A DNA stretch of 64,000 nucleotides from a virus: the IMG/VR virus record IMGVR_UViG_3300045988_111426. One strand, 5' to 3'. A program made the position numbers and the translations under genes. Each line of letters begins with the position of its first letter. The stretch's first letter is position 1. This document shows positions 11,282 through 39,586 of the stretch, in pieces. Under the pieces are notes generated by a model. That model worked only from the letters and a program-made list of their open reading frames with translations. It was not told the origin of the DNA and searched no databases.

Positions 11282-12778
11282 TTAATGTCCGAAGTTATCT
11301 TTTAATATCTGCTTTAAGTGATTAATATCTGCTTTGATTTCTGCCTCTTTGTGTTTTGCTTCTACTCGTTTGTTGAACATGTTCGAGATCATGGTTCGAA
11401 TTGCGGAATCTCTGTTTTTTGAGTAAACTGCACCACTTGATGAATAACACATCGATTCGTCAAGTTCGTGCTGTTCACCCATCTTGTCCACGTAGGTTTT
11501 TCCCTTATCATCGGTATGACCGAGGTAAACATCTTCACCAACGTTCAACATCTGCATAATTGAGGGGAACAGTGATTCGTAGTCATAGATGACAATCCCA
11601 TCATAAACACCAATACCTGGTTGTAAGACGAATCCTGCACTGTAAGTTTCACCTTCGGGAATCTGCTTGTCATAATCCTTTACAAACACTTTGTTGTAAT
11701 GCTTGTAATAGTAGTCACACAAGAGTGTTTCAATCCCTACACTGACGAACATAGACTGTGCAACTTCGACACGTAGAAGATTTGCAAGAACGCTCATTGA
11801 TTCGAATGTTCTACACTTCTTATCGATCAATGCCACGAGGAACGTATCGATGATACCATAAAGCACGTAACGTTCATAGTCCTTCTCATAGAGTTCCATC
11901 AGAGTTTCGGAATGATGGATCTTCTTGACACCAAGGATCTCCGATGCGATAAAGTCGAGTGACATTGATGACTTCTGCTTAATCGATCTATCAAAGAACT
12001 CAAAGATTTGCATGTAGTCGATGATTGGTCGATGAAGAGGAAGTTCGATTTCAATCTTAGATGAATGATCAAACTTGTCTTTCGCAATCGTCGAGTAAAG
12101 CATTCTCTTCGGGGAGAGAATTGTAGGATCAATGTTCGTCTTCTTACATCTGTTGACGAGATATCTTGTATCGAACTTCAAGACGTTCCATCCGAAAATA
12201 CACGGCATCCGTGTTGCGTGATTCTCGACGAAGTCTTTGTTCATTGTGAACTCATCGGGGTAGTAAATGTAACGGAACTTATACCTCTGATGAAGTGTTT
12301 TATCGGTGATTTGTGAAAGATAGTCGTTGATCTTCTGTTCGATAGAGTCGATTTGTGTCTGTGAAAGTGGCTTGATCCCCATGACAGTACCATTCCCGAA
12401 TTCGTCACAATACTGATGCGTGAAGATTCTCCCTACAGGATTTCCAGCATCTGGGAAGTCATCAAAAACTTCCGTTTCGATATCCCAGAAGAACTTACGA
12501 GGTTGATTGTTTGAGAAAATCTTCGCTTGTAAACGTTCTGGTAGAGACAATAAGAACTCGATCTTGCGATATTTGTCGAGATAGGACTTACGTTCCTTTT
12601 TCACAGGGAATCCGTCTTGGGACACGTAAGTCTTATCTCGGAACTTATCATCTTCGGTTGTCTTTGTCCATACGTACTTTTCACGATCATCTATTGTTAT
12701 GTCAGATATCGCAATGTTTCCGTTTTCGTCGAAATAAGACACCGACATCTTGTCTCTGATCTGTTTACAATTGATCAT
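11282..12778 (-). CDS. family-B DNA polymerase, N-terminal half (3'-5' exonuclease plus motif A)
   Basis: ExoI 'FWDIETEV', ExoII 'FGWNVLKFDTRYL', ExoIII 'YGIIDTFLV', motif A 'YDYESLFPSIM'. The ORF stops before motif B. Confidence 0.85.
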   Translation of the reverse strand: MINCKQIRDKMSVSYFDENGNIAISDITIDDREKYVWTKTTEDDKFRDKTYVSQDGFPVKKERKSYLDKYRKIEFLLSLPERLQAKIFSNNQPRKFFWDIETEVFDDFPDAGNPVGRIFTHQYCDEFGNGTVMGIKPLSQTQIDSIEQKINDYLSQITDKTLHQRYKFRYIYYPDEFTMNKDFVENHATRMPCIFGWNVLKFDTRYLVNRCKKTNIDPTILSPKRMLYSTIAKDKFDHSSKIEIELPLHRPIIDYMQIFEFFDRSIKQKSSMSLDFIASEILGVKKIHHSETLMELYEKDYERYVLYGIIDTFLVALIDKKCRTFESMSVLANLLRVEVAQSMFVSVGIETLLCDYYYKHYNKVFVKDYDKQIPEGETYSAGFVLQPGIGVYDGIVIYDYESLFPSIMQMLNVGEDVYLGHTDDKGKTYVDKMGEQHELDESMCYSSSGAVYSKNRDSAIRTMISNMFNKRVEAKHKEAEIKADINHLKQILKDNFGH

Positions 12779-12807
12779 TTTCTCCGTGTTGTTTTTTGTC
12801 CTCTTTC

Positions 12808-13458
12808 TTATCGTCTCCGTCTATACATTCGTTCTATGTTGTCTTGGTGGAACTTTGGAAGAGAATCAAAAAACGCTTCATGGTCTGTTATCTTAAAGTA
12901 TTCGCAATAGATGCAAAAATAGAGCTTATGATCGAAATCGAAATCTATCATTTTCCGATAGACGACATCATAAAGATCAGAACGGTCATTCTTAAAGAAC
13001 GAGTTCATCAGCTTTTCGTATGGCTTCAGATGACTCTTATCTTCACGAGAGAAAGTACAATAATCGTCAGATACAACAACATCACCATTATGAAGTACAA
13101 AGTTTATCATAAATGGTGATGTTTTATCGAGATGACAAACGTTGTCGCCACATCTCACATGATTCATATCGAACGATCGTACGTACGAGAATCGCTTATG
13201 CTTGTTGATGATCGACTGCAATGATGAATAGAACTTTTCACAGAAGTTCTGTCTTGTTCTATATTCATCGGGGTTATAAATGTCATCAAGGAATTGATCT
13301 TGATAATCTTGATCAGCAGAGAAAGAAGTACCACAAGAGTTCTCCTTGTACATGTTACCACCAGTCTTCGACTGCGGTATGAAGAGCACATCCTCCTCCT
13401 GCTGTTCATCTTCTATCTTCGCCTTCGATGAGACATTGTTAGTAGTTGTTTTGTCCAT
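12808..13458 (-). CDS. hypothetical Cys/His-rich protein
   Basis: Start trimmed to the ATG at 13458 (MDKTTTNN), because the longer ORF overlaps the TerL nuclease ORF. Contains 'HVRCGDNVCHLDK' and 'YFCIYCEYF'. Confidence 0.45.
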   Translation of the reverse strand: MDKTTTNNVSSKAKIEDEQQEEDVLFIPQSKTGGNMYKENSCGTSFSADQDYQDQFLDDIYNPDEYRTRQNFCEKFYSSLQSIINKHKRFSYVRSFDMNHVRCGDNVCHLDKTSPFMINFVLHNGDVVVSDDYCTFSREDKSHLKPYEKLMNSFFKNDRSDLYDVVYRKMIDFDFDHKLYFCIYCEYFKITDHEAFFDSLPKFHQDNIERMYRRRR

Positions 13459-13462: not shown

Positions 13463-14281
13463 TTAATCGTAATAGTCTGATATGTCGAGTTCGTCATTTC
13501 TTTCGGCTTGTTTCCCGAGCTTCTTGTCGACCAGTTTCCAAAACTCGCTTGTGCAATTTTCACTGACAATCTCCACGAGTTCTGACCATTCTTCGATATC
13601 TCGAATGTTTACAACGTTTACACACGTCATAACACAATCGTCATGCCCCGAGCTTGCACGATATGAAGACGATTTTTCTGATCGTGCAAATGTCATAGCT
13701 TCTTGAATAGTCATAAACTCAGTAAGAACAAGCTGATTGTTCTTGAGCTGATCAGAGAATATCTTACAAGAATGTTGCTTTCGGGGTTCTGTTTGATATA
13801 TCCCAACTCTGAAAGTTCGGGCATTATCATCTCGGGCATTATAGAGAAACTTGCAGAATATGACATCTTCGTCGAGTTCATTCTGTTCTCCATAAATGTT
13901 CATTAGTGTGTTTCGGAAGTAGTTCCCTTCAAAGTTGTTCTCGATAACGATCTTCAAATTATCCTGCACCATGTAACCGTTTATGAAATGATACAGCCAA
14001 TTTGCACATTCTGGTGTTTCTACCATGTTCGATCTAAACATGGCGACTTGTACCAACTTGAAGAATGATTCTTCGTCGTTGAAGATCTTCACACCTTCAA
14101 TTTCTAAAGGTGTCATCGGTAGGACTTGGAAGAAGTTGATAATCGTGTAGTCACCACCTTTTCCCTCTGCAATGTCTATCGATAGAACGAATGCGTTGCG
14201 TTCATCTTTAAACCATTGAAGTTCGAATGATGGGTGAATGAAAAAGTACTGGTCGTATTCAAGGAGAACATCTTCAACCAT
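13463..14281 (-). CDS. terL: terminase large subunit, C-terminal nuclease domain (separate ORF)
   Basis: 'VLSIDIAEGKGGDYTIINFFQV' parallels T4 gp17 '[21 protein letters not shown]'. 'SSGHDDCVMTCVN' parallels 'EGYHDDLVMSLV'. Confidence 0.75.
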   Translation of the reverse strand: MVEDVLLEYDQYFFIHPSFELQWFKDERNAFVLSIDIAEGKGGDYTIINFFQVLPMTPLEIEGVKIFNDEESFFKLVQVAMFRSNMVETPECANWLYHFINGYMVQDNLKIVIENNFEGNYFRNTLMNIYGEQNELDEDVIFCKFLYNARDDNARTFRVGIYQTEPRKQHSCKIFSDQLKNNQLVLTEFMTIQEAMTFARSEKSSSYRASSGHDDCVMTCVNVVNIRDIEEWSELVEIVSENCTSEFWKLVDKKLGKQAERNDELDISDYYD

Positions 14282-14338: not shown

Positions 14339-15475
14339 CTATAAAGACCCATCTTGGGAGAACACACCATTTACGAACTTCTTCTGATATTTCCCGAGCT
14401 TCTTGAGGACAGCCGTTGAAAGTAGAAGTGTCGATCCGCTCATAAACGAGTTACCATACTCTTGGTTAAAGTCGGCTTCAGAACCAAGGTCGGCAATCTG
14501 ATCAAGTCTCCATTGTTCGTCTCTGCCTTCGACCTCCCACCAGTCTATTCTTATTGGGTTGAAGTTGTTCTTACCATCGAGTGCATCTTGATAAAGCTGA
14601 TAGAACTTGTTCATACCTCTTGCCGTGCTGGTGATGATCATCTTCGACTTCTTACTTGCAGAAAGTGTAGGATAAACTACACGGAAGAACTCGTTGATGA
14701 TGTTTGGTTCAATAAGTGCAAACTCGTCAGCATAAAGGAGGTCGGCAGTTTCACCTGCACCAGAGTTCTCCGTGGCAGTTTCACCGATCAGTTTACAACC
14801 GTTGTCCCATTTCTTCTTGGATACGTTATCGACTTCAATCCCGAGCTTCATATAGAACGGAAGATGCATGAAGATCGAGTTTATCTTGTCAACAAGCTCA
14901 TCAACCTTGTCTGCGTTAGCACTAGTACAAAGAACAGTCTTGTCGTAGTTAGTCAAGATATACCATGCAATGAAAATGCCCGACATTACAGAGTTGTGAG
15001 AAAGTATGCCGTCAGAGAAATATGATAAAGTCTCATCCACGACAGACAGGTCGAACACGATCTGCTGATGAGACTTCTTGAGTGAAGAGACTTTCCGTGC
15101 ACCATCCATTGTCATTAAGATATCACCTAAAGAGAGATCTCGGACTTTCGTAGGTTGATAGCTTTCAAGTGAACTCTTGGAAGAATAGATGAGGTGATTA
15201 ACAGATCCACTGACTGAGTATTCACCTGCACCAACCTCCACGATGTCATGTACGGCTTTCAAATGAACAGAAGAAAGTGGCTTCCAACCGTTTATAGTGA
15301 GTGTTTCGTGGTTATCAAGTACAACTGAATCGATTATTCCGTCATCGTTTATTGGAAATCTCCAAAGTTTGTATCGTATTATTGTGAGGAAGATTATCAG
15401 TTTGTCGAGGATGTATTGCATGAAGTCTTTGAAAAATACAGATGAATGAGGATGCACTTGTTCGTACACCCTCAT
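14339..15475 (-). CDS. terL: Hint/intein domain fused to the terminase ATPase domain, which lacks Walker A
   Basis: Intein blocks 'SGSVNHLIY' (B) and 'VFDLSVVDETLSYFSDGILSHN|S' (F/G). The following 'SVMSGIFIAWYIL...LLYADEFALIEP...MIITSTARGMNKFY' is colinear with gp17 'TTVVAIFLAHFV...MIYIDECAFIPN...IIITTTPNGLNHFY'. No 'RQxGK' P-loop precedes it. Confidence 0.8.
   Translation of the reverse strand: MRVYEQVHPHSSVFFKDFMQYILDKLIIFLTIIRYKLWRFPINDDGIIDSVVLDNHETLTINGWKPLSSVHLKAVHDIVEVGAGEYSVSGSVNHLIYSSKSSLESYQPTKVRDLSLGDILMTMDGARKVSSLKKSHQQIVFDLSVVDETLSYFSDGILSHNSVMSGIFIAWYILTNYDKTVLCTSANADKVDELVDKINSIFMHLPFYMKLGIEVDNVSKKKWDNGCKLIGETATENSGAGETADLLYADEFALIEPNIINEFFRVVYPTLSASKKSKMIITSTARGMNKFYQLYQDALDGKNNFNPIRIDWWEVEGRDEQWRLDQIADLGSEADFNQEYGNSFMSGSTLLLSTAVLKKLGKYQKKFVNGVFSQDGSL
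14993..15328 (-). mobile_element. mini-intein / Hint module (aa ~50-161) at the TerL P-loop site
   Basis: C-terminal 'SHN' followed by a +1 Ser. No endonuclease domain. The N-terminal boundary is uncertain (possible block A 'SVVLDNHETLTINGWKPL'). Confidence 0.6.
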
Positions 15476-16329: not shown

Positions 16330-16785
16330 CTACTTTCCTATGTGTTGAGATTGATGATGATGGCTGATGTGGCTGATGTTGATATCGATCGATACGTCTT
16401 GCTTTATCTTCATCAAGAATTGTTCTATTCTCTTTTTTTCTTCTGCCTTATTACGTGTACCGAAGTTGTAATTCTTACCACGACCTTCGGGATATCTTTC
16501 ACGGATCTTGATGAGATTTGCTTCCATGACATCATCAATCGTGACACCAAGGAAATGACAAATGTTCATGAAGTAGAACAGAACATCACCGAGTTCGTCT
16601 ACGAGATCAACCTTCGAGATCTCCTTAGAATGGAACACTGCCTTCTTGACTATATCAGCAAATTCACCAGATTCTGACATAAGTGCCATTGTCATGTGAA
16701 TGAAGTCGAGAACCTTGTTGTTTGTAGGATTCTCGTTGAAGCAAGAAACGACAAATTGCTCGTATTCTTTTACTTTTTCATCCAT
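16330..16785 (-). CDS. mazG: MazG-like nucleoside triphosphate pyrophosphohydrolase
   Basis: 'MALMSESGEFADIVKK...LVDELGDVLFYFMNICHFLGVTIDDVMEANLIKIRERY' fits the all-alpha NTP-PPase pattern. The track start at 16800 is TTG; an ATG lies at 16785. His-rich tail. Confidence 0.75.
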   Translation of the reverse strand: MDEKVKEYEQFVVSCFNENPTNNKVLDFIHMTMALMSESGEFADIVKKAVFHSKEISKVDLVDELGDVLFYFMNICHFLGVTIDDVMEANLIKIRERYPEGRGKNYNFGTRNKAEEKKRIEQFLMKIKQDVSIDINISHISHHHQSQHIGK

Positions 16786-16832
16786 TTTTATTGTTATCAA
16801 TATGACTGATTTGTGGTATTCTTATATATGAC

Positions 16833-16865
16833 GAGGTCGCCATATCTTCTCGACATAGCGACCTC
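16833..16865 (-). terminator. 8-bp GC-rich hairpin
   Basis: gaggtcgc / gcgacctc, between 16907..17434 and mazG. Confidence 0.4.
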
Positions 16866-16906
16866 AAACTAATCAATCAAATCAATCAACAAAACCGACG
16901 AGATTT

Positions 16907-17434
16907 TTACTTCTTCGTCGATTTGCGTGCGGTAGTCTTCTTTTCCTTTGGTTCTTCTACCTTTTCTTCAGCCTTTTCTTCTACTTCCTTTGTGTCTTCG
17001 GTCTTTTCTTCCTTAGAATCGTCTTCAGCCTTTTCCGTAGTTTCTTCTGCGGTTTCCGTAGTTTCTTCTACCTTTTCCGTTTCGGTTTCGGTCTGTTCTT
17101 CTTCAATGTCTTCACCTTCCACCTTTATGGCGTGGAGCTGATGACCACCGAGGATACGGTTATACTTCAGTTCGAACGAATAACCATCAATAACTACAGA
17201 CGGACACAGAGCCATGAAGAGATTCGTCTGTGATTCCGTGACGAAGAGATGATTAAGAGATGAGAATGTCTTACCATCAAGCCACTTAGGGCTTTCAAGT
17301 TCACTCGTTATAAACTCTGCAACACCATCGGTGTTGAATTCACCATTGACAGGTGTAAACCAAAAGCCGTTAGATTCGATGCTTCTATCATCGATCTTTG
17401 ACTTCGTGATCTTGATATTACTAAGTTCAAACAT
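16907..17434 (-). CDS. hypothetical protein with E/T/K-rich low-complexity tail
   Basis: 175 aa with tail 'EEEQTETETEKVEETTETAEETTEKAEDDSKEEK...'. Late-promoter-like motif at 17460-17474 upstream. Confidence 0.5.
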   Translation of the reverse strand: MFELSNIKITKSKIDDRSIESNGFWFTPVNGEFNTDGVAEFITSELESPKWLDGKTFSSLNHLFVTESQTNLFMALCPSVVIDGYSFELKYNRILGGHQLHAIKVEGEDIEEEQTETETEKVEETTETAEETTEKAEDDSKEEKTEDTKEVEEKAEEKVEEPKEKKTTARKSTKK

Positions 17435-17459
17435 GTTTCGTTTCTTTTTTGATCAAAAA

Positions 17460-17474
17460 TTCTCATTATTTAAA
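17460..17474 (-). promoter_or_regulatory. late-promoter-like motif variant (TTTAAATAATGAGAA)
   Basis: 26 nt upstream of the ATG at 17434. Confidence 0.35.
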
Positions 17475-17512
17475 AGTATAAGAAGAAAAACCAATCAGAA
17501 AGATCAATCGAT

Positions 17513-17983
17513 ATGGAAGAGAATAATAGCAAAGCGTGGGATATTTACAGCACGTTAGAAGTTGATGAAAACGGAATACCAATCACGACACCTTCTGAGA
17601 GTGTTAGAGAGGTTATCAATGAAGAACCTCGTCAGACGATAATGCTTCATAGAAACGAGATCGAAGAAGAAGATAACAGTCAGAAGATCGTATATGAAAG
17701 TGGTGACGAATCTCACGCCATCAAGCTCCCTCCAAGGAAACTGAACCTTCCGAATGAGGTCATAGGAATAGTCAAGAATGGTGTAAAGTCCACCATTTCT
17801 TTCAACATTATGGTTGAAATCGACATGATACCCGAGAGCATCATCGACTTTTTATCAGAGTCTTACAACATACCGAAAGAAGATGTCGTGAAAGACATCG
17901 TTGAACTTTCTTTTGATGAAGATGATGCAAAAAAGATCCTCTCCGAAGGAATAATAAAGGAACTCTGGAAAGAAGAAAAATAA
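17513..17983 (+). CDS. hypothetical acidic protein (plus strand)
   Basis: 156-aa ORF filling the gap between two minus-strand genes. No minus-strand alternative exists. Confidence 0.45.
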   Translation: MEENNSKAWDIYSTLEVDENGIPITTPSESVREVINEEPRQTIMLHRNEIEEEDNSQKIVYESGDESHAIKLPPRKLNLPNEVIGIVKNGVKSTISFNIMVEIDMIPESIIDFLSESYNIPKEDVVKDIVELSFDEDDAKKILSEGIIKELWKEEK

Positions 17984-17986
17984 CGG

Positions 17987-18622
17987 CTACGATTTGATAG
18001 CCATTGAACGGATAGTTTTTCTTATCATCTCCGTTCTTGATTGTGTCGAAGAGAGGTCACCAGAACATCTCTTCGACACAACGTTTGTACCAAACACGAT
18101 CTCACCATCCTTTTCTTCTGTCTGTGGCTGTGTAGTCATGTTCGTTGTTCTGATTGGTGTTGTGGATTCCGAAACCATCTGAGGATTGGACTGTCGTATA
18201 AGTTCCATTATCCTCTTCTTATCCTTCTCTGCAACACTTCGATTGAGTTCTCGTTGAGATTCGTTCTCTTTAGGAGAAGATGAAGCCGACTTCTTTATAG
18301 CTTCGACTGCTGTTTGTCTGTTCGGTGTTATGAACGTGAAAGTCCCATCCATTGAATAAGGATTCGAGACGTGGTTGTAATGCATCAAGATATCGGCATC
18401 GTCTTCTGATCCCATAAGAATTCTCGAGACAAGATGAGGTCTACCGCTCAAATCTTCAGAAATCGTCGATATCTGTAAAGTGTAGTCCATAGGAACAGTC
18501 TTTGAAAACGATTCAGAACAAAGATCGATGATTTCTTCATCATCAATCCTTATCGTCTGCTTTGCTTCCAATGACTGGTAAGATATCGGCTTTAGTGAAG
18601 GTATTACGAGCTGGTAGTCCAT
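17987..18622 (-). CDS. hypothetical protein (LysM / tail-protein-X-like motif by eye)
   Basis: Start trimmed to the ATG at 18622, because the 18-bp hairpin 18633-18683 lies inside the longer ORF. 'HLVSRILMGSEDDADILMHYNHVSNPYSMDGTFTFITP'. Confidence 0.4.
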   Translation of the reverse strand: MDYQLVIPSLKPISYQSLEAKQTIRIDDEEIIDLCSESFSKTVPMDYTLQISTISEDLSGRPHLVSRILMGSEDDADILMHYNHVSNPYSMDGTFTFITPNRQTAVEAIKKSASSSPKENESQRELNRSVAEKDKKRIMELIRQSNPQMVSESTTPIRTTNMTTQPQTEEKDGEIVFGTNVVSKRCSGDLSSTQSRTEMIRKTIRSMAIKS

Positions 18623-18632
18623 ATACAAAAAT

Positions 18633-18683
18633 CGGTGAAGTCCTTTTGTTATGTAACTACCTACCAACAAAAGGACTTCACCG
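18633..18683 (-). terminator. perfect 18-bp hairpin after purB
   Basis: cggtgaagtccttttgtt / aacaaaaggacttcaccg with a 15-nt loop. Confidence 0.65.
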
Positions 18684-18701
18684 ACGAGTTTTCGTTTTTC
18701 T

Positions 18702-19973
18702 CTAAAGCTCTATGAACTTCTTGATTTCATCATACTCAATACCGAGAGTTTTTAGAGCTTTCTTGAAGTCGTAGAGTGTCATCGAACTTCCTCTAAACAC
18801 ACGCTTCGATTCTTCATATGCGTCTTCATCTCCCTTCAACTTCAAGTAGAGCTGTACGATTTCAGAGAACACTTGATAATTCTCCTCGAGATCATCTTTT
18901 ATCTTCTCCTCGTTCACCTCGAGCGACTTCAAGCCATTTGCAAACGAAGAGAATCCAAGATAAAGATAAGACAGAGTTTCGGGGATCATTCTTATGACCA
19001 CTGAATCGGAGAGATCACGATGCATTCTTGATTTCGATAACTTATTAATGTAAAACTCGAAGTCTTTCTGACATCTACAGAAGCATCCTTCCGCATTTTC
19101 AAACTTGATGGGGTTGACCTTGTGGGGCATAGCGGAAGATCCACAATAACCTTCGTCTACCTTCAGTTTGAAATAACCATCCGAGCACATTTGCCAAATC
19201 TGTTGAATGTCGCTAATGATTCTTGAAATGGCCAGATTCCAATCAGAGAATCTTTCACAGAACGATTCCCATCTGTCGGTTTGTGTCGCTTCTTCTCCAC
19301 TAATGGTGAACCTGCCGAACTTCTTGACAAACGAATCCATAAGTTCTGCAACTCTCCGAGGATCAATATCGAAAAGTCTCGATATTGCGAAGTTGTTACC
19401 GACAGCACCAGAGAACTTGACAACTGAATAGCCATTTGTACGTTGTCTAAACTTCAAGACATCATACCGCCATTTATAAACGTCATCTTTCAAAAGATGA
19501 GGAACTGCAGATTGTCCATGAGTCTTTGATAGAGACCAAATGCCCCTTGTCTCTCTATGAAGATTTGTGAGGATTCCTTCGACATAGTTTACCGAACGAT
19601 CAATGACTTCCATTGCTTCTTGCATGAGGATAGACATTGACAAGGAAACTATGTCTTGTGAAGTCAGTCCGAAGTGAACATAAACCGAACCCGACGTTTT
19701 TCTTTGTAAGACATTAATAACTGCCTTGACATCGTGCTTGGTTACACTTTCCTCTTCAAGAATCTCGTTGTAGACAGAACTGTCGAACTTGCAGTTTTTT
19801 CTGATGATGTCTTCGTTTACTTCTATGTTTGCTATCTCTTTTAAGAAGTAAAGAAGATATTCGACTTCGACATTCCACATCGTCTTATAGTACCTTTCGG
19901 AATTAAAGACCTTTGACATGTTCTGTATGACATCCGAATACCTGTGATCGAGAGGAGATACGTTCCGTTGCAT
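18702..19973 (-). CDS. purB: adenylosuccinate lyase
   Basis: 'SPLDHRYS', 'HFGLTSQDI' and the fumarate-lyase signature 'GSSAMPHKVNPIKFENAEG'. Start set to the ATG at 19973 (MQRNVSPLD). Confidence 0.85.
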   Translation of the reverse strand: MQRNVSPLDHRYSDVIQNMSKVFNSERYYKTMWNVEVEYLLYFLKEIANIEVNEDIIRKNCKFDSSVYNEILEEESVTKHDVKAVINVLQRKTSGSVYVHFGLTSQDIVSLSMSILMQEAMEVIDRSVNYVEGILTNLHRETRGIWSLSKTHGQSAVPHLLKDDVYKWRYDVLKFRQRTNGYSVVKFSGAVGNNFAISRLFDIDPRRVAELMDSFVKKFGRFTISGEEATQTDRWESFCERFSDWNLAISRIISDIQQIWQMCSDGYFKLKVDEGYCGSSAMPHKVNPIKFENAEGCFCRCQKDFEFYINKLSKSRMHRDLSDSVVIRMIPETLSYLYLGFSSFANGLKSLEVNEEKIKDDLEENYQVFSEIVQLYLKLKGDEDAYEESKRVFRGSSMTLYDFKKALKTLGIEYDEIKKFIEL

Positions 19974-20052
19974 TTTGATTGATTGATTGGGGTGAAAATA
20001 TTCGTCGATATTCCAGAGCACAAGGAAAGTACCTTCCTTAAGCTCGGAGAGC

Positions 20053-20451
20053 CTATTTTATGAGGAATGTGGTGATCGCCACTGCAGAAGAAAGAAGTCC
20101 AACATATTTCCAAAATGCTGACTTTTGTCTTTCCTTCTTCAGAGATTTTTCATAAATCTCCACCATCTTCTTATGGTTTGATATGATAGTGTCATTTTTC
20201 ATCATCATCTCGTCATATTTGCGGAGCTGTTCAAGCTGGTTTTCGATGATGAGTGTCTTGTTGTCCACGACTTCTCTCAAAGACTGCATAATCGAATCCT
20301 TCATTGCGGAGATCTCAAGAAGTTGCTTATGTTGATCAAACATGTGGTTGATTATGACAGCATCTTTCTTCGAGATTTCTATGTTCTGCGCACGTGATCC
20401 AAATGTACAACAGAGAAGCATCACTATCGAGAAGCTAATTATTCTTTTCAT
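20053..20451 (-). CDS. secreted or lipoprotein-like coiled-coil protein with C-terminal TM
   Basis: Signal-like 'MKRIISFSIVMLLCCTFGSRAQ', a coiled-coil middle, and a 'VGLLSSAVAITTFLI' anchor. Confidence 0.45.
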   Translation of the reverse strand: MKRIISFSIVMLLCCTFGSRAQNIEISKKDAVIINHMFDQHKQLLEISAMKDSIMQSLREVVDNKTLIIENQLEQLRKYDEMMMKNDTIISNHKKMVEIYEKSLKKERQKSAFWKYVGLLSSAVAITTFLIK

Positions 20452-20836
20452 ATTCTTGGATGTTTTGTCTTAGTTCTTGTTCGACTTCGAACACGTCTTT
20501 GGAGAAATTCAGCTTCTTTGCTCGCATTGCGCTCTCTGCTTTCCTTAGTGAAAATGTCTTCGTGTCGACGACATTTTCAAGTGAATCGATCTTTTTTGAA
20601 GATATCTCGTTTTGTAGGGAAAGTGAATCGATCTGCGCCTTCAACTTTCGAACATCGTGTTCATAGACAGAGTTCGTGTATTTCAACGAATCGATTATCT
20701 CGTGAGGTTTGTTTTCACTTCCTATGTTTGCAATACGCATAATTGCGACAATGAAGTAGATCGTGGTGATTACAAAGAAAACTATCGTAGAAATCCGTAA
20801 TATCTTCTTAATGTTTGTGCAGTTATCTTTTGTCAT
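20435..20836 (-). CDS. N-terminal-TM coiled-coil membrane protein (i-spanin-like topology)
   Basis: TM segment 'ISTIVFFVITTIYFIVAIM', then coiled coil. Overlaps the next gene by 17 nt. Confidence 0.45.
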   Translation of the reverse strand: MTKDNCTNIKKILRISTIVFFVITTIYFIVAIMRIANIGSENKPHEIIDSLKYTNSVYEHDVRKLKAQIDSLSLQNEISSKKIDSLENVVDTKTFSLRKAESAMRAKKLNFSKDVFEVEQELRQNIQEYEKNN

Positions 20837-20880
20837 AATGAAGATTTTCGAAATGGTATGGGCTTGTGTTTTTTATTAAT

Positions 20881-20889
20881 CTTATAACA
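20881..20889 (-). promoter_or_regulatory. extended -10-like element (minus strand TGTTATAAG)
   Basis: Immediately downstream of hairpin 20892-20933 and about 45 nt upstream of the ATG at 20836. Confidence 0.3.
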
Positions 20890-20891
20890 AG

Positions 20892-20933
20892 AATGAGGGT
20901 CATTGTGTGCTTATCGTCACAATGACCCTCATT
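20892..20933 (-). terminator. perfect 16-bp hairpin after the PurA-family gene
   Basis: aatgagggtcattgtg / cacaatgaccctcatt with a 10-nt loop. Confidence 0.6.
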
Positions 20934-20958
20934 TATCGAATTGTTCTTGAAGAAGAGG

Positions 20959-22380
20959 TTATTCTTCTACAGCGACAAAGTCGTCGGATTCACGACCAGT
21001 CCCCAGTACAGAAAGCACAACCTTCTTATCATCACCCACAAGCTTGTTGATGGTGTCGATTTCTCCGAACATATTCTTGGAGAGCCAATCTTCTACCTTT
21101 GTTGTGATCTTTTCACGTTCTCCGTCCATTTCGCCATCTACCCAGTTGACGAAGTTGATGACAATATGAGTTTTACCATTTGGAGAGAGATTGTAGAGAA
21201 TGCCGTCGTGCAGAAGGCTCTTATCGAACTCGAAGACTCTTCGGGGGAGCTTGGTAAGTGACGTGCATTTTACATCATCTGGAATCGTCTTCCCATAGTT
21301 CTTTTCGACATCTTCCCACGTGATTTCTCGCTGGTGACTTTCTTCGTTCCAGATTGGAGAATAACCAGTACCGCTGAATGATTCGATGACTTCGTATTCA
21401 AGATATGGGAACTCACGCATTTCGTAGAAGTTGATGAATTCCTTACGTGTGACGATAGAAACGTGATCATCTCCTTCGATGAAGTCGAACAGATGCTTAT
21501 GAGCGTAGTACTTGAGCGTCGATTCCGAGTTCTTGTGAAGTCGGACAACTGGCTTCCCACCAATAAGGCGATACTTCTTGTTGTTGATCTTGATCGGATA
21601 AGTTCTACCATTCAAGATAACGTCACCTGCGAAGAATGGAGGAAGATTCATATCATCCAAAGCTGCACTGATCGTCACGTTTCGACTTGTTGAGTTCTGC
21701 TTGTTATAGCCGAGACCATACGAAAGTGGGAAACCTTGACCAATTTGCAGAAGGACTGATCCTCCATTGATCATAAACGTCATAAGACGCTTTTCGACAT
21801 CACAGATGAACTGCTTGAGTTCTGGGACTTGGTAAGCATAAGTCACCGTCTTGTTTCGAACGACCTTCTTTGCACGAACTGCACCAGATCCAGAGCAAGT
21901 AGATCCGCCTGCGATTGTGCCGTCATGATCAGACGACGAGTAGTTACCATCGATATCGCAAAGACCCTTTTCATAGTCTTCATCGATCTTGGTGATGATC
22001 CCTGCCTTGGGGTGGATGAAGAGCTTATCGAGAGGAAGACCGCTCATCTTGATTTCCTCGAAGAGACGTTCAACGGAGAACGACGCACCGTGACCGATAG
22101 CAACGAACTCGAGCTTTTCGTGGAGGTAGGCAGATGAAGGGAGAACTTCAAACATCATCTTCTTGCCGTCATCGTAGACCCAATGCGATGCATTTGCAGA
22201 GTTCGTAGTACAGACTGCAAGACGCTTATCACCAGTGCCGAACGAGGTGTTCTTCACGATCAGAGATTCACATTTGCCCTTGCCAGATGAACCTGCAGAA
22301 TAACCATCCAACAAGAACGTGATCTTTCCCTTTTCGAACATGTGATCAAACATGCCTACTTGATGCTTCTTGGCTTTCAT
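20959..22380 (-). CDS. divergent adenylosuccinate-synthetase-family enzyme (PurA/PurZ-like)
   Basis: Colinear with PurA by eye. P-loop 'GSSGKGK' (PurA GDEGKGK), 'NSANASH' (GGHNAGH), 'GGSTCSGSGA' (GTTGRGIGP), 'LLQIGQGFPLSYG' (MFEGAQGTLLDIDHG). Carries a large insertion before the C-terminal third. Confidence 0.65.
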   Translation of the reverse strand: MKAKKHQVGMFDHMFEKGKITFLLDGYSAGSSGKGKCESLIVKNTSFGTGDKRLAVCTTNSANASHWVYDDGKKMMFEVLPSSAYLHEKLEFVAIGHGASFSVERLFEEIKMSGLPLDKLFIHPKAGIITKIDEDYEKGLCDIDGNYSSSDHDGTIAGGSTCSGSGAVRAKKVVRNKTVTYAYQVPELKQFICDVEKRLMTFMINGGSVLLQIGQGFPLSYGLGYNKQNSTSRNVTISAALDDMNLPPFFAGDVILNGRTYPIKINNKKYRLIGGKPVVRLHKNSESTLKYYAHKHLFDFIEGDDHVSIVTRKEFINFYEMREFPYLEYEVIESFSGTGYSPIWNEESHQREITWEDVEKNYGKTIPDDVKCTSLTKLPRRVFEFDKSLLHDGILYNLSPNGKTHIVINFVNWVDGEMDGEREKITTKVEDWLSKNMFGEIDTINKLVGDDKKVVLSVLGTGRESDDFVAVEE

Positions 22381-22576: not shown

Positions 22577-22840
22577 CTAAAGTTCTACAGACTTTGACAT
22601 CTTGAACTTACCGACCTTCTTTGCAGGTACTGTCATCTTTTCCTTAGTACCAGGCTTGAAGGCTTCACGCTCTGGGCGAACTCTGGATGAGTACGTACCG
22701 AAGCCAACGAAGGTCACTGGCTCATCCTTCTTAAGACTTTCGATGATAGTCTTGTGATAAGCACCGATGATGGCTTCTACCTGCGTCTTAGTTGCACCAG
22801 TCTGCTCTGCGAGAGCTGTGATGAATTCTTTCTTAGTCAT
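22577..22840 (-). CDS. hup: HU/IHF-family DNA-binding protein
   Basis: 'MTKKEFITALAEQTGATKTQVEAIIGAYHKTIIESLKKDEPVTFVGFGTY...PGTKEKMTVPAKKVGKFK' fits the HU pattern. Confidence 0.85.
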   Translation of the reverse strand: MTKKEFITALAEQTGATKTQVEAIIGAYHKTIIESLKKDEPVTFVGFGTYSSRVRPEREAFKPGTKEKMTVPAKKVGKFKMSKSVEL

Positions 22841-31011: not shown

Positions 31012-31797
31012 TTAAACACTCACATCCGCCTTGATCGTAGGATGATGAACGTAGTTCTTGATTACGATTTGATCGATGAGATTTGCGGAGATATTGTCAA
31101 TGTCGATATCTCCCACGATTTCTATCTCTGGGAGTTCGTATGGTTTTCGGGATAGTTGGAGCTTTACTTGATCCAAGTGATTCTTGTAGATGTGAAGATC
31201 TCCAAACGAATGGATAAATCGATGAGGTTTCTTGTCACAGATCTTTGCAACAATGTAAAGCAGAAGTGAGTATTGAGCAAGATTGAATGGAACACCCAAG
31301 AAGAGATCGGCAGATCTTTGATAAAGCTTTAATGAAAGCCTGTCACCTTCGACATAGAACTGGAAGAAACAATGACAAGGAGGAAGTGCCATTTCCGAGA
31401 GTTCTTGAGGATTCCAAGCCGAGACGATTATTCTTCGTGAATCTGGATTGTTCCGAATTTGGTCGATTGCTTCTCGAATCTGATCAACCCCTCCGAAATC
31501 TCTCCATTGCTTTCCATAGATCTTTCCAAGGTCTCCGTTTTCATCTGCCCATTCATCCCAGATCGTCACACCATTGTCTCGGAGGAACTTCACGTTTGTA
31601 TCACCACGGAGCATCCAAGCAAGTTCGAATATGACACTTCTCATATGGATTCTCTTCGTGGTGAGGATTGGGAATTTTTCACTTACGTCATATTCCACTT
31701 GATGACCAAACACAGAGATTGTTCCAGTTCCAGTTCTGTCCGTTCTTTCTGTCCCGTTTTCGAGAACGTACTTGAGCAAATCGAGATAAGTCTGCAT
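31012..31797 (-). CDS. thyA: thymidylate synthase
   Basis: 'DRTGTGT', '[14 protein letters not shown]', '[19 protein letters not shown]' (Asn retained), and canonical C-terminus '[11 protein letters not shown]'. Confidence 0.9.
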
Positions 31798-35851: not shown

Positions 35852-37054
35852 TTACCAAAGTGGATCGAAAGCGATCAATGAAACAGGCAATGCTTGTACA
35901 CCAATCGAAGTGATTATCTTGTTAAGTGGTGAAAGATAAAGCATTTCGAACTGCTTGGAATAATCGATTGGATAAAGGAACTCATAACAAGGGTCTCCGT
36001 TGACAAATGCGAAGACATCACTTCGGGGATCTGTTGAATAGTAGTATTGAATCTTCATCCCCGATCTGATCTGTTGATATTTGTGTTTATACTTCGACTT
36101 TGTAAGTTCGGCATTATAAACACTCGAAGCTCTGATCTGAATTGTTACCCCCTTGACGTATTCGAAGACACCATCTTTTGCAGTTATCACATATTTCTCA
36201 TAACCATTAACTCTCTGAGAGATTGCAACATCTTCCACGTTTGCACTTTCAAATTTTGATTTTTGCATTTTGACGTGGTCGATGAAATCTCGAAGATTCA
36301 GTTCTCGGTGTTGCAAGATATAGTGAACTGTCTCACGGAGAAGTTCTCGGACAAACTTTGGTGTCGATGACTTGTTAATATCGAGACCTTTGACTTCTAC
36401 GTTTTCAAGTGGCTTGAAATAAACGCCTTCTTCCCAAGAGATATTCTTGATGTACTTCTTCTTCGATGTCCACAAGACGTTGTGGCAGATCATCTCAAAA
36501 GCAAGCTTCATTGAACGTTGTCCATCAATCTTCTGCTGGAATCCGTTGAACTTGCGGATATAACCAACGAGCATATCTTTGACACAATCATTCAGATCGT
36601 TTTCACCAATATCAAAGACGAATTCTTCAAGAGTTCCCTTGTAATCGGTCTTGTCCATGATGTCCTTGTAACGGATAAACACGGAATCTGTGTCGGCATA
36701 GTTCACCGCATTGAAATCGATCGGATCACACTTTGTAATCCCCATCTTTGCATGCAGTTCCCGATGATTTGGGAATCTCTGTTGGAAATACCTATTGAAG
36801 AAGAGAATGGTGTAACGGATCACATGAGAAGATTGCTCAGACACGGATCTTGCAATTTCTCTATCGTAGAGGATAAATGAATGATAACCAAGAACACCAT
36901 AGATTGAGTTGAGAGCAACTTTCGAGACTTTGTTAATTGTTGACTGATAACTTGCTTCTCTCTCAAGTCTGGATATTTCCATCAGAATCTCCTCTTCTGT
37001 GACATTCTGTCCTTTCTTCAAGGATGAGTGGTTAAGTTCTATCTCAAGGATCAT
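35852..37054 (-). CDS. family-B DNA polymerase, C-terminal half (motifs B and C, KKKY, thumb)
   Basis: Motif B 'KVALNSIYGVLG', motif C 'YADTDSVFI', and 'TSKKKYIKN'. Begins with its own ATG. Confidence 0.85.
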   Translation of the reverse strand: MILEIELNHSSLKKGQNVTEEEILMEISRLEREASYQSTINKVSKVALNSIYGVLGYHSFILYDREIARSVSEQSSHVIRYTILFFNRYFQQRFPNHRELHAKMGITKCDPIDFNAVNYADTDSVFIRYKDIMDKTDYKGTLEEFVFDIGENDLNDCVKDMLVGYIRKFNGFQQKIDGQRSMKLAFEMICHNVLWTSKKKYIKNISWEEGVYFKPLENVEVKGLDINKSSTPKFVRELLRETVHYILQHRELNLRDFIDHVKMQKSKFESANVEDVAISQRVNGYEKYVITAKDGVFEYVKGVTIQIRASSVYNAELTKSKYKHKYQQIRSGMKIQYYYSTDPRSDVFAFVNGDPCYEFLYPIDYSKQFEMLYLSPLNKIITSIGVQALPVSLIAFDPLW

Positions 37055-39055: not shown

Positions 39056-39586
39056 ATGAAGAAGATAGCTTTCGTTGGTAAATCTGCAGTTGGTAAGAAT
39101 CACTTCTTAAACATCTTTACCGCTCTTGGATACAAACCAGCAATAGGTCATACTACAAGAGCACCAAGAGAGGGGGAACAAGAAGGTAAAGATTATCACT
39201 TTGTCTCTAAGGAAGAGTTTGCGGAGATGATCTTGAAGGACGAGTTCATCCAGTTCATGCAGTTCCAAGGAGAATATTACGGAACTACTTTCACAGAATT
39301 CAGAAATTGTGACTTCTTCATCACTTCACCAACTGGTCTTGAGTACATTCCCGACAATCTTCGCTCAAATATAACAATAGCTGAACTCATCTGTGAAAAG
39401 ACAGTCACAATCCTCAGAAGACAGATTCGTGATGCATCCCAAGATACCACTTCGAGAGATGAGAATGACGACAAGCTCTTTGAAAACTTTGATCAGAAAA
39501 TGAAAGATCTCGGTTATAATCACGTGAAGATCGACACTGCAACAGCAATCGAAAAGTTCTACGCTCACAGCTTTGATGTATGCTAA
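39056..39586 (+). CDS. gmk: guanylate-kinase-like nucleoside monophosphate kinase
   Basis: P-loop 'GKSAVGKN', 'GHTTRAPREGEQEGKDYHFVSKEEF' and 'GEYYGT', matching Gmk 'SHTTR.PR.GE..G..Y.FV' and 'YYGT'. Confidence 0.75.
   Translation: MKKIAFVGKSAVGKNHFLNIFTALGYKPAIGHTTRAPREGEQEGKDYHFVSKEEFAEMILKDEFIQFMQFQGEYYGTTFTEFRNCDFFITSPTGLEYIPDNLRSNITIAELICEKTVTILRRQIRDASQDTTSRDENDDKLFENFDQKMKDLGYNHVKIDTATAIEKFYAHSFDVC

What the first reader, a model, noticed from the sequence alone, without database searches (positions are those of the whole stretch)
16330..22380. PurA-family enzyme with altered active-site motifs, plus PurB and MazG: candidate 2-aminoadenine (Z-base) or related purine-modification pathway
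- **Genes within 6 kb:** a MazG-type NTP pyrophosphohydrolase (16330-16785), a canonical adenylosuccinate lyase (18702-19973), and a 473-aa adenylosuccinate-synthetase homologue (20959-22380).
- **Altered motifs:** the homologue's catalytic motifs differ from PurA by eye: GDEGKGK -> GSSGKGK, GGHNAGH -> NSANASH, TTGRGIGP -> STCSGSGA. It also has a large insertion.
- **Further genes:** a guanylate-kinase-like gene lies at 39056-39586.
- **Established parallel:** in S-2L/PhiVC8-type phages, PurZ (a PurA homologue acting on dGMP), PurB, MazZ (MazG-like) and guanylate kinase make dZTP, giving restriction-resistant Z-DNA.
- **What differs here:** this gene set fits that logic, but the synthetase is much longer than the PurZ proteins I recall. 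No HD-type dATPase (DatZ) is recognisable in the window, and the replicase is a split PolB. It may therefore be a distinct variant or a different purine chemistry.
Basis: partly seen in the sequence, partly recalled or inferred. Interest (0 to 1): 0.8.

Follow-up and report, generated by a model that had tools for sequence, protein, structure and literature searches.

The report
Long PurZ pathway in T4-like phage
A ~150-kb T4-like phage from the human mouth carries a divergent, unusually long version of PurZ, the enzyme that known phages use to replace adenine with 2-aminoadenine (Z) in their DNA, together with its own copies of follow-up enzymes that known Z-phages borrow from the host; this points to a new, untested variant of the Z-DNA pathway.

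Summary
The 473-aa protein is not an odd PurA. It belongs to a phage-restricted "long PurZ" clade that is monophyletic (100/100 bootstraps), sister to ATP-type PurZ (96/100) and inside the Ser-bearing PurZ/PurZ0 group (95/100).

It keeps nearly every substrate-contact residue of crystallised PurZ: S31 in place of the PurA catalytic Asp, T373, I265 at the 2'-OH-blocking position, and an N409-F410-x-N412 adenine pocket. Its AF2 model (pLDDT 94) best matches phiVC8 PurZ. The extra length comes from two insertions, one of variable length.

The context differs from every described Z-phage:
- T4-like myovirus with a split family-B polymerase and no PolA/DpoZ
- no MazZ/DUF550, and no datZ-mazZ-purZ cluster (0 of 59 long-family loci)
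- phage-encoded PurB and guanylate kinase, which are host functions in known systems

A DatZ-like HD protein does exist, about 6 kb outside the window. Flavobacterium phage MaF61, a cultured relative, has the same gene set.

Against complete A-to-Z replacement, the genome also encodes an EcoRI-type adenine methyltransferase. No chemistry was tested. Verdict: a probable new variant of the Z-DNA pathway, confidence about 0.6.

The parts
20959..22380 (-). Long-form PurZ-like synthetase (473 aa): predicted N6-succino-2-amino-2'-deoxyadenylate synthase (dGMP + Asp + ATP)
   Evidence: PHROG 1211 (PurZ) E 9e-24. Best PDB sequence hit is phiVC8 PurZ, E 6e-16. NJ tree: sister to PurZ, 96/100. PurZ pocket residues conserved in 39-40 of 40 family members. 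AF2 pLDDT 94.3; Foldseek top hit 6TNH.
21376..21579 (-). Variable insertion subdomain (aa ~268-335) directly after the invariant Ile265 loop. It is absent or short in some family members and absent in classical PurZ.
   Evidence: Alignments. Modelled with high confidence as a small beta/alpha subdomain. No significant structural match for it alone.
18702..19973 (-). Phage-encoded adenylosuccinate lyase (PurB), predicted to convert dSMP to dZMP
   Evidence: Lyase_1 + ASL_C. NCBIfam PurB models 265/211 bits, below cut-off. SSAMPHKVNP signature. Linked to long PurZ in the window clade, L002, L033-L037, L040 and MaF61.
16330..16785 (-). MazG-type all-alpha NTP pyrophosphohydrolase; candidate supplier of dGMP and/or remover of dATP
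   Evidence: Pfam MazG 40.7 bits, PHROG 229. ESGE/DELGD motifs. Syntenic in L002, L027-L032 and L040. Not homologous to MazZ/DUF550 at detectable level. Only 6 homologues found.
39056..39586 (+). Guanylate-kinase-like NMP kinase, predicted to convert dZMP to dZDP (and dGMP to dGDP)
   Evidence: Pfam Guanylate_kin 67.6 bits over aa 2-84. TIGR03263 67.7 bits, below cut-off. P-loop and TTRxPRxGE motif. GMK lies near long PurZ in L006, L041/42, L058, L062 and L064/65, and is present in MaF61.
11282..12778 (-). Family-B DNA polymerase, N-terminal piece (exonuclease plus start of the polymerase domain)
   Evidence: Pfam DNA_pol_B_exo1/DNA_pol_B. Matches MaF61 PolB aa 16-543.
35852..37054 (-). Family-B DNA polymerase, C-terminal piece
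   Evidence: Pfam DNA_pol_B. Matches MaF61 PolB aa 572-994.
22577..22840 (-). HU-type DNA-binding protein, a conserved upstream neighbour of long PurZ
   Evidence: Bac_DNA_binding gene immediately upstream of long PurZ in L002, L005, L022, L027-L032 and L044-L055.
31012..31797 (-). Thymidylate synthase ThyA (context: canonical dTMP supply, so T is not replaced)
   Evidence: Pfam Thymidylat_synt 374.7 bits.

Best explanation
The window is part of a ~150-kb T4-like myovirus from human oral metagenomes. It encodes a self-contained route from dGTP to dZDP.

Proposed steps:
1. A MazG-type pyrophosphohydrolase (16330-16785) supplies dGMP from dGTP and may also hydrolyse dATP.
2. [quoted passage not shown]
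3. The phage's own PurB (18702-19973) removes fumarate to give dZMP.
4. The phage guanylate kinase (39056-39586) makes dZDP, and a host NDP kinase makes dZTP.
5. The split family-B polymerase incorporates dZTP opposite T.
6. A DatZ-like HD phosphohydrolase, encoded ~6 kb outside the window, may lower the dATP/dAMP pool.

The result would be virion DNA in which adenine is wholly or partly replaced by 2-aminoadenine, which protects A/T-containing restriction sites.

What is shown: gene identities, residue conservation, phylogenetic position, fold, synteny and genome-wide gene content.
What is inferred: substrate specificities of all enzymes, polymerase tolerance of dZTP, and the presence and extent of Z in the DNA.
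For: (1) PurZ signature residues are conserved in the window protein and in 39-40 of 40 family members.
- S31 replaces the PurA catalytic Asp. Ser is found in 100% of 147 phage PurZ/PurZ0 (PMC12884076), and the S14D mutation abolishes selectivity (bioRxiv 10.1101/2025.10.22.683976).
- T373 = T262/T273.
- I265 sits at the Val that clashes with a 2'-OH.
- N409-F410-x-N412 is the adenine pocket, where PurA and PurZ0 keep the guanine-binding Asp.
- W355, Y340 and P262 are also conserved (PMC8342488).

(2) Phylogeny: family monophyletic 100/100; with PurZ 96/100; with PurZ0 95/100. The Asp-retaining PurA-likes of other large phages (ScottMcG, pv27, Rhizobium TM3) fall elsewhere.

(3) Structure: AF2 pLDDT 94.3. 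The Foldseek top hit is the phiVC8 PurZ quaternary complex 6TNH (E 3e-21, TM 0.84), while long bacterial PurA scores ~0.6.

(4) PurB and GMP kinase are the enzymes that follow PurZ in the known pathway, where the host supplies them (bioRxiv 10.1101/2025.10.22.683976; PMC12783734). Here both are phage-encoded. PurB is linked to long PurZ in several subclades and in MaF61, and has diverged about as much as PurZ itself (31% vs 40% identity), which suggests long co-inheritance.

(5) A DatZ-like HD protein with the H..HD..E..D core is present in the same genome, in its sister genomes and in MaF61, where it passes the HD_3 cut-off.

(6) The family is absent from 185,579 species genomes, so it is phage-restricted and not a recently captured host purA.

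(7) Both the window phage and MaF61 have purged G/C-only palindromes (CCGG 0 observed vs 107 expected, CGCG 1 vs 87, GGCC 14 vs 70). Palindromes with 4-6 A/T letters are not avoided. This fits protection of A/T-rich sites by a base modification (PMC12944874).
Against: - No chemical evidence exists.
- The protein scores 85 bits against NCBIfam's PurZ model (cut-off 300). That is no better than the archaeal-type PurA model (82 bits).
- F12/Y21 is replaced by Ala, and the stacking Pro336 is not conserved.
- None of 59 long-family loci carries DatZ or MazZ/DUF550 within 10 kb; the only PolA-type signal is one weak DpoZ-query hit in L075 (3e-5). Classical PurZ loci almost always carry them.
- The MazG is not detectably related to MazZ.
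- The HD protein is only subthreshold for HD_3/YfbR-like in the window phage. It could equally be a 5'-deoxynucleotidase.
- The whole genome has no PolA, and no family-B polymerase has been described in the Z-phage papers I consulted.
- The genome encodes a strongly conserved EcoRI-type N6-adenine methyltransferase (413 bits, NPPF motif). It would be largely redundant if GAATTC were fully Z-substituted, because EcoRI is not among the enzymes that still cut dZ-DNA.
- PurA-like plus PurB is also the textbook IMP->AMP branch.
- The palindrome pattern lacks a host-matched control.
Confidence: 0.6

Rival explanations
1. Auxiliary adenine-nucleotide synthesis. The synthetase and PurB together form the ordinary IMP -> adenylosuccinate -> AMP branch (or dIMP -> dAMP). 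They would boost adenine nucleotides for a 59% A+T genome, and the DNA would be canonical.
For: PurA-like plus PurB is the complete canonical two-step branch. There is no Z-cluster synteny in any long-family locus. An adenine-specific methyltransferase in the genome implies adenine in the DNA. Some relatives have an adenosine/AMP-deaminase-family neighbour, which would give a purine-nucleotide-cycle-like set. Other large phages carry Asp-retaining PurA-like genes.
Against: The catalytic Asp of PurA is replaced by Ser in 40/40 family members. The GTP-binding (T/N)KxD Asp is replaced by Asn. The aspartate-loop Gly is Thr. All three are PurZ states and not PurA states. The family branches inside the PurZ group, away from the Asp-retaining phage PurA-likes. 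TIGR00184 purA scores 45 bits against a cut-off of 395. A deaminase paired with an IMP-using synthetase would be a futile cycle.
Confidence: 0.15
2. A PurZ-type enzyme with a different output from full Z-DNA. One option is partial A->Z substitution. Another is action on GMP (ribo), with phage/host RNR then reducing the product. A third is a Z-nucleotide used for something other than bulk DNA, such as a signalling or anti-defence nucleotide.
For: The enzyme is PurZ-like, but its partners differ from all known Z-phages. The EcoRI-type adenine methylase and unavoided GAATTC sites suggest some adenine remains. F12->Ala and the large insertion next to the ribose-proximal loop could alter sugar or base selectivity. 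RNR genes are present in relatives. Engineered systems without an adapted polymerase reach only partial substitution (PMC12944874, Table 2).
Against: Invariant Ile265 at the 2'-OH-clash position favours a deoxy substrate (PMC8342488). PurB, GMK and a DatZ-like HD are all present, which fits the full pathway. Palindromes with 4-6 A/T letters are unavoided genome-wide, as expected for pervasive modification.
Confidence: 0.2
3. A decayed or non-catalytic PurA relic retained for a structural or regulatory role.
For: The Pfam match is weak and partial (34 bits, aa 52-176) and below every NCBIfam cut-off.
Against: 37 invariant and 32 nearly invariant columns across 57 sequences at ~40% identity, concentrated on catalytic and ligand-binding residues (H66, K34, R175, Q215, T231, R380, R381). 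The full fold is modelled with high confidence. The gene is maintained even where inteins have invaded it.
Confidence: 0.03

Closest known systems
PurZ (ATP-dependent succino-amino-deoxyadenylate synthase) of phiVC8, S-2L and SH-Ab 15497-type phages; PDB 6FM1/6TNH/7ODX
   Same: Same fold. Ser in place of the PurA Asp13, Thr in the aspartate loop, the N-F-x-N/Q adenine pocket, a hydrophobic residue against C2', the SG..Y..DQ.E(L/I)TWE loop, and the catalytic His/Lys/Arg set. It is the sister group in the tree.
   Different: 22-31% identity. 473 aa against 343-389 aa, owing to two insertions. F12->Ala. Fails the NCBIfam PurZ cut-off (85 vs 300 bits). Never adjacent to datZ/mazZ/dpoZ. Found in 140-280-kb T4-like or jumbo contigs with family-B polymerase instead of ~40-kb sipho/podoviruses with PolA or PrimPol.
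PurZ0 (GTP-dependent) of Gordonia/Arthrobacter phages; PDB 7VF6
   Same: Ser at the catalytic position and Thr in the aspartate loop; member of the same Ser-bearing group.
   Different: PurZ0 keeps the guanine-binding Asp (S[F/M]ADQ) and lacks the Tyr-containing loop. The window protein has the ATP-type pocket. PurZ0 phages use DutZ/DmtZ/DUF5664 and DpoZ-1 (PMC12884076); I did not search here for DutZ, DmtZ or DUF5664, having no reference sequences (a weak DUF550 fusion-protein query found nothing).
Archaeal short PurA (Pyrococcus horikoshii, PDB 5K7X/2D7U)
   Same: Equally good global fold match (TM 0.86) and a similar NCBIfam score (82 bits).
   Different: Retains the catalytic Asp, Gly in the aspartate loop and a GTP-type Asp. 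It branches outside the Ser-bearing group.
PurA-like genes of other large myoviruses (cluster C mycobacteriophages such as ScottMcG, Vibrio phage pv27, Rhizobium phage RHph_TM3_3_6)
   Same: A PurA-superfamily gene carried by a large tailed phage.
   Different: Those keep GD(E/A)GKG with the catalytic Asp and cluster on the canonical PurA side of the tree.
Flavobacterium phage MaF61 (PQ858689), a cultured 167.8-kb myovirus
   Same: Shares ~24 proteins with the window, including long PurZ (40% identity), PurB, MazG-like, GMK, ThyA, DHFR, GroES/EL and family-B polymerase. It also has the HD_3-type protein homologous to the one outside the window.
   Different: PolB is unsplit, the genes are dispersed, and there is no EcoRI-type methylase. 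Its paper does not comment on these genes or on DNA composition (PMC13269007).

Membership tests
PurZ (2-amino-deoxyadenylosuccinate synthase) | Catalytic Asp13 of PurA replaced by Ser | tested here: met
   S31; Ser in 40/40 family members. Literature: 100% of phage PurZ/PurZ0 (PMC12884076).
PurZ (2-amino-deoxyadenylosuccinate synthase) | Thr (phiVC8 T262 / S-2L T273) at the tip of the aspartate loop, where PurA has Gly | tested here: met
   T373; 39/40 family members.
PurZ (2-amino-deoxyadenylosuccinate synthase) | ATP-type donor pocket: Asn-Phe-x-Asn/Gln plus an aromatic residue, with no guanine-binding Asp | tested here: met
   N409-F410-V411-N412-W413, against phiVC8 NFCNY; 39/40 conserved. 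PurA has TKLD and PurZ0 has S(F/M)ADQ.
PurZ (2-amino-deoxyadenylosuccinate synthase) | Hydrophobic residue packed against C2' (S-2L V241), followed by an insertion that excludes ribonucleotides | tested here: met
   I265 invariant (40/40), followed by an even larger insertion. The geometry itself was not checked, because model coordinates cannot be superposed here.
PurZ (2-amino-deoxyadenylosuccinate synthase) | Aromatic residue at phiVC8 F12 / S-2L Y21 next to the 2-amino group | tested here: not met
   A29; Ala in 29/40 and Phe in 8/40. In S-2L the contact is made by backbone atoms (PMC8342488).
PurZ (2-amino-deoxyadenylosuccinate synthase) | Phylogenetic placement within the PurZ/PurZ0 group | tested here: met
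   NJ with 100 bootstraps: family+PurZ 96, +PurZ0 95. The method is distance-based only.
PurZ (2-amino-deoxyadenylosuccinate synthase) | Score above the curated NCBIfam NF038379 cut-off (300 bits) | tested here: not met
   85.1 bits over aa 30-266.
PurZ (2-amino-deoxyadenylosuccinate synthase) | Synteny with datZ and mazZ/DUF550 (the Z-cluster) | tested here: not met
   0 of 59 long-family loci, against nearly all of 20 classical PurZ loci.
PurZ (2-amino-deoxyadenylosuccinate synthase) | Catalyses dGMP + Asp + ATP -> dSMP; Z present in virion DNA | not testable with these tools
   Needs an enzyme assay and LC-MS.
Canonical PurA (adenylosuccinate synthetase) | Catalytic Asp13 and GTP-binding (N/T)KxD motif | tested here: not met
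   Ser31 and NFVN. TIGR00184 scores 45.5 bits against a cut-off of 395.55.
PurZ0 | GTP-type pocket retaining Asp (S[F/M]ADQ) and lacking the Tyr244 loop | tested here: not met
   N412 instead of Asp; Y340 loop present.
Adenylosuccinate lyase (PurB) | Lyase_1 + ASL_C domains and the SSxMPxKxNP catalytic loop | tested here: met
   The NCBIfam equivalog cut-offs are not reached (265 vs 446 bits).
MazZ ((d)GTP-specific MazG-HisE NTP-PPase of Z-phages) | Homology to MazZ-1 (S-2L) or MazZ-2/DUF550 | tested here: not met
   phmmer E = 1.4 to S-2L MazZ and no hit to DUF550. No PDB sequence hit. A generic MazG domain with metal-binding motifs is present. The AF2 model is too poor for fold comparison.
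DatZ (HD dATP triphosphohydrolase) | HD_3/YfbR-like HD domain with the H..HD..D metal site, encoded by the phage | tested here: inconclusive
   Absent from the window. Present at contig 124845-125603, outside the window: HD 18.8, HD_3 17.8 and YfbR-like 17.8 bits, all below cut-off. It is homologous (E 2.5e-22) to MaF61 ORF97, which passes HD_3. The motifs align with DatZ. Substrate unknown.
DpoZ (Z-selective family-A polymerase) | PolA-type polymerase encoded by the phage | tested here: not met
   No PolA hit in the window or in the rest of the 150-kb genome; the polymerase is a split family-B enzyme.

The most novel reading that the evidence does not exclude
A whole lineage of large T4-like and jumbo myoviruses, at least some infecting Bacteroidota, replaces adenine by 2-aminoadenine. 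The lineage includes a ~150-kb human oral phage and the cultured Flavobacterium phage MaF61. It would use an independently organised, host-independent pathway: long PurZ, its own PurB, its own GMP kinase, a non-MazZ MazG and a divergent HD hydrolase. Replication would be by a family-B polymerase. That would give a new host phylum, a new virion type and a new polymerase family for Z-DNA. In some relatives an adenosine-deaminase-family enzyme may take the place of DatZ in removing adenine nucleotides.
Probability: 0.4. Interest if true: 0.8.

Novelty: new variant of a known kind. Interest (0 to 1): 0.62.

Why it matters
In the papers I could read, Z-DNA is described only in small sipho- and podoviruses of Pseudomonadota, Cyanobacteria and Actinomycetota, replicated by PolA-type DpoZ or PrimPol and dependent on host PurB and GMP kinase.

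If this lineage makes Z-DNA, several things follow:
- The trait extends to T4-like and jumbo myoviruses, to phages related to a Flavobacterium (Bacteroidota) phage, and to the human oral virome.
- A family-B replicase can copy Z-DNA.
- A host-independent enzyme set (PurZ, PurB, GMK) becomes available for engineering dZ synthesis.

If the DNA turns out to be canonical, the family would instead show that the PurZ residue signature is not sufficient to predict Z genomes. That matters because more than 2,000 viruses have been called Z-phages from homology alone (PMC13128860).

Either outcome can be tested directly, because MaF61 is in culture.

Tried and rejected
1. Megablast of the region against the phage collection found no match.
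2. The weak Pfam N6_N4_Mtase hit at 26851-27579 was dropped because the ORF has no (D/N/S)PP(Y/F) motif.
3. MazG structure: only 6 homologues were found and the AF2 model has pLDDT 54, so I ran no fold search.
4. The MazG PDB sequence search gave only chance-level hits.
5. The word-indexed homologue search with MaF61 ORF97 (HD) returned 3 proteins and missed the window phage's own homologue. That homologue turned up only after I walked the whole genome. I had provisionally concluded that the HD gene was a MaF61 peculiarity, and that conclusion was wrong.
6. The GTDB genome scan for the long family found only weak hits (28% identity or less) in MAG contigs, so it gave no host assignment.
7. Literature searches for PurZ together with Bacteroidota, Flavobacterium, family-B polymerase, phage-encoded PurB or myovirus found nothing. 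The MaF61 paper does not discuss these genes.
8. I did not search for DutZ/DmtZ-type enzymes of the PurZ0 systems, because I had no reference sequences. About 30 ORFs outside the window were scanned with Pfam and gave no dUTPase or NDT hit, but the scan was not exhaustive.
9. The insertion subdomain has no significant structural match of its own.

Full report
**1. Observation**

The ORFs are as described.
- MazG-type pyrophosphohydrolase: 16330-16785 (-). Pfam MazG, PHROG 229.
- Adenylosuccinate lyase: 18702-19973 (-). Lyase_1 + ASL_C; SSAMPHKVNP catalytic loop.
- PurA-superfamily protein, 473 aa: 20959-22380 (-).
- Guanylate kinase: 39056-39586 (+).

The three motif changes reported by eye are real and align with E. 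coli PurA. The replicase is a family-B polymerase in two genes 23 kb apart, which map to residues 16-543 and 572-994 of the unsplit MaF61 enzyme. No HD/DatZ, MazZ or DUF550 homologue lies in the window.

**2. What the 473-aa protein is**

Generic models see only its N-terminal third: Pfam 34 bits over aa 52-176. Its best matches are all PurZ:
- PHROG 1211 ("2-aminooxy adenylosuccinate synthetase", E 9e-24).
- The phiVC8 PurZ crystal structures (E 6e-16) and S-2L PurZ, ahead of archaeal PurA.
- In the phage collection, only PurZ genes of known Z-phages, plus one full-length homologue in Flavobacterium phage MaF61.

NCBIfam places it below every cut-off: PurZ 85 bits vs 300, archaeal-type PurA 82 vs 368, TIGR00184 45 vs 395. 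So it is not a member of the curated PurZ family as currently defined.

It belongs to a family of more than 250 proteins of 400-485 aa, or 44 clusters at 50% identity with E <= 1e-30. These sit on contigs of 140-280 kb. No close member was found in 185,579 species genomes.

A bootstrapped NJ tree gives the family 100% support. It is sister to ATP-type PurZ (96%) and lies within the Ser-bearing PurZ+PurZ0 group (95%). P. horikoshii PurA falls outside that group. The Asp-retaining PurA-likes of cluster C mycobacteriophages, Vibrio phage pv27 and a Rhizobium phage fall on the canonical side.

**3. Residues**

I mapped the published determinants from PMC8342488 (sections 7-8), PMC12884076 (section 24) and bioRxiv 10.1101/2025.10.22.683976 (section 8) onto 40 family members.

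| Published determinant | Window protein | Conservation in family |
|---|---|---|
| Ser replacing PurA Asp13 | S31 | 40/40 |
| Aspartate-loop Thr | T373 | 39/40 |
| Residue that clashes with a ribose 2'-OH (Val in PurZ) | I265 | 40/40 |
| Adenine pocket (phiVC8 NFCNY) | N409-F410-x-N412 + W413 | 39/40 |
| Catalytic His and other ligand-binding residues | H66, R175, Q215, T161, T231, R380, R381 | invariant |

PurA has TKLD at the donor pocket and PurZ0 has S(F/M)ADQ, both keeping the guanine-binding Asp. The PurZ-only loop SG..Y..DQ.E(L/I)TWE is present.

Departures from PurZ: F12/Y21 -> Ala29, G51 -> Ser65, and the stacking Pro336 is not conserved.

The extra length comes from two insertions. 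One (aa ~139-155) is family-wide. The other (aa ~268-335) is variable and sits directly after the Ile265 loop.

The AF2 model is confident (pLDDT 94.3, pTM 0.92). Its best match is the phiVC8 PurZ complex with dGMP, Asp and AMPPcP (6TNH, E 3e-21, target TM 0.84). P. horikoshii PurA matches equally well at fold level, while long bacterial PurA scores about 0.6.

**4. Context**

The window is part of a T4-like myovirus. It carries gp32, gp20 portal, a T4-type terminase with an intein-like segment, GroES/GroEL, ThyA, DHFR and RtcB.

The same phage occurs in IMG/VR as contigs of 145-152 kb and in a contig labelled human oral metagenome (PRJEB6997).

The 66%-identical relative L002 keeps the order HU, PurZ, x, PurB..., MazG..., terminase.

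Across 80 IMG/VR loci, classical PurZ genes are almost always flanked by MazZ/DUF550, DatZ and DpoZ. None of the 59 long-family loci is (bar one weak PolA-type hit in L075). Instead they show PurB, GMK, HU, terminase, PolB and, in a few jumbo contigs, an adenosine-deaminase-family gene.

In known Z-phages the steps after PurZ are carried out by host PurB and host GMP kinase (bioRxiv 10.1101/2025.10.22.683976, Introduction; PMC12783734; PMC8342488). Here both are phage genes.

MaF61, a cultured 167.8-kb Flavobacterium myovirus, shares about 24 proteins with the window. These include long PurZ, PurB, a MazG-like protein, GMK, ThyA, DHFR and PolB. It also has an HD_3/YfbR-like protein, ORF97, which belongs to the two Pfam families that define DatZ.

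**5. The rest of the genome**

Outside the window there is a 252-aa homologue of MaF61 ORF97 (E 2.5e-22), about 6 kb beyond the window's left end.
- It has the H..HD..E..D core aligned with DatZ.
- Its own Pfam scores are subthreshold.
- It is conserved in every sister-genome locus that covers this region.

No PolA, MazZ, DUF550 or deaminase was found anywhere in the genome.

The genome also encodes an EcoRI-type N6-adenine methyltransferase (413 bits, NPPF motif) that is conserved in sister genomes and absent from MaF61. EcoRI is not among the enzymes that still cut dZ-DNA (PMC12944874). This gene is therefore modest evidence that adenine persists, unless its specificity or substrate differs from M.EcoRI.

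**6. Sequence-level hint**

In both the window phage and MaF61, CCGG, CGCG and GGCC are almost eliminated (0-14 observed against 70-148 expected). Several 6-mers with two A/T letters are also eliminated. Palindromes with 4-6 A/T letters are not avoided, with median O/E of 0.95-1.0.

This is what an A·T-directed protective modification would produce, because sites with 4-6 dZ are the most resistant (PMC12944874). I have no host-matched control, so I treat this as suggestive only.

**7. Interpretation**

The best-supported reading (confidence about 0.6) is a self-contained variant of the dZTP pathway:
1. MazG supplies dGMP.
2. Long PurZ makes dSMP, using ATP/dATP.
3. Phage PurB makes dZMP.
4. 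Phage GMK makes dZDP.
5. The family-B polymerase incorporates dZTP.
6. An HD hydrolase possibly lowers dATP.

Gene identity, residues, phylogeny, fold and synteny are shown. All substrate specificities and the DNA composition are inferred.

Rivals:
- Ordinary IMP->AMP auxiliary metabolism (0.15). The Asp->Ser change, the ATP pocket and the tree contradict it.
- A PurZ-type enzyme with a different outcome, such as partial substitution, a ribo substrate or a non-DNA use (0.2).
- A non-catalytic relic (0.03).

**8. Novelty**

The chemistry and the enzyme superfamily are known. More than 2,000 viruses have already been flagged by PurZ homology (PMC13128860), and I cannot exclude that some long-family members are among them.

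I found no description of the following in the accessible literature:
- this long clade
- its association with T4-like or jumbo myoviruses and family-B polymerases
- a phage-encoded PurB and GMK partnering PurZ
- the absence of the Z-cluster
- the link to a Bacteroidota phage and the human oral virome

I therefore rate it a new variant of a known kind. It is directly testable with MaF61.

Noticed in passing
whole ~150-kb genome (window plus L163, L161, L151, L145, L124, L122, L143) and MaF61 (L023-L026): Near-total purge of G/C-only palindromes, given as observed vs Markov-expected for the window phage and then MaF61: CCGG 0/107 and 1/122, CGCG 1/87 and 0/78, GGCC 14/70 and 1/148. Some 6-mers with two A/T letters are also purged (GACGTC, GAGCTC, GGATCC, GGTACC). 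Palindromes with 4-6 A/T letters are not avoided.
   Followed up: partly
outside the window: IMGVR_UViG_3300009964_000001 144843-145808 (L143:15833-16798, -): EcoRI-type N6-adenine DNA methyltransferase (PF13651, 413 bits, NPPF motif). It is conserved in at least 4 sister genomes and absent from MaF61. GAATTC is not depleted (82 observed, 65 expected).
   Followed up: partly
outside the window: contig 124845-125603 (L122:5815-6573; L113:9286-10044): 252-aa HD-superfamily protein homologous to MaF61 ORF97 (HD_3/YfbR-like), with DatZ-like H..HD..E..D motifs. It lies next to the sliding-clamp homologue, about 6 kb from the window's left end.
   Followed up: yes
window 11282-12778 and 35852-37054: The family-B DNA polymerase is split into two genes 23 kb apart on the same strand, with no intein remnant visible. 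The MaF61 orthologue is a single 994-aa protein.
   Followed up: partly
window 13463-14281 and 14339-15475; contig 12761-13222: The large terminase is encoded in pieces. ORF 14339-15475 begins with an intein-like segment ending ...SHN|S. A further TerL-like 153-aa ORF lies about 100 kb away. This may be a split-intein 'fractured gene'.
   Followed up: no
P0067, P0135-P0147 and other homologues: Several long-PurZ homologues are 750-824 aa because inteins interrupt them (Intein_splicing plus LAGLIDADG). The host gene is maintained as functional despite the invasion.
   Followed up: no
L003 9006-9998, L004 1206-2159, L075, L078, L080: An adenosine/AMP-deaminase-family gene (PF00962) lies next to or near long PurZ in several 250-280-kb jumbo-phage contigs. 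It could be an alternative way to remove adenine nucleotides. The window phage has no such gene.
   Followed up: partly
window 28041-28910, 28927-29982, 30011-30976: Three tandem DHFR-like ORFs, scoring 126, 34 and 18 bits to DHFR_1, upstream of ThyA. The second and third are long and divergent.
   Followed up: no
window 193-564, 9418-11007, 58179-59375: Phage-encoded GroES-like and GroEL-like chaperonins and an RtcB RNA ligase. MaF61 also has the chaperonin pair.
   Followed up: no
L002 806-3687: The 204-kb relative carries anaerobic ribonucleotide reductase NrdD/NrdG near the PurZ-PurB block, which fits an anaerobic host.
   Followed up: no
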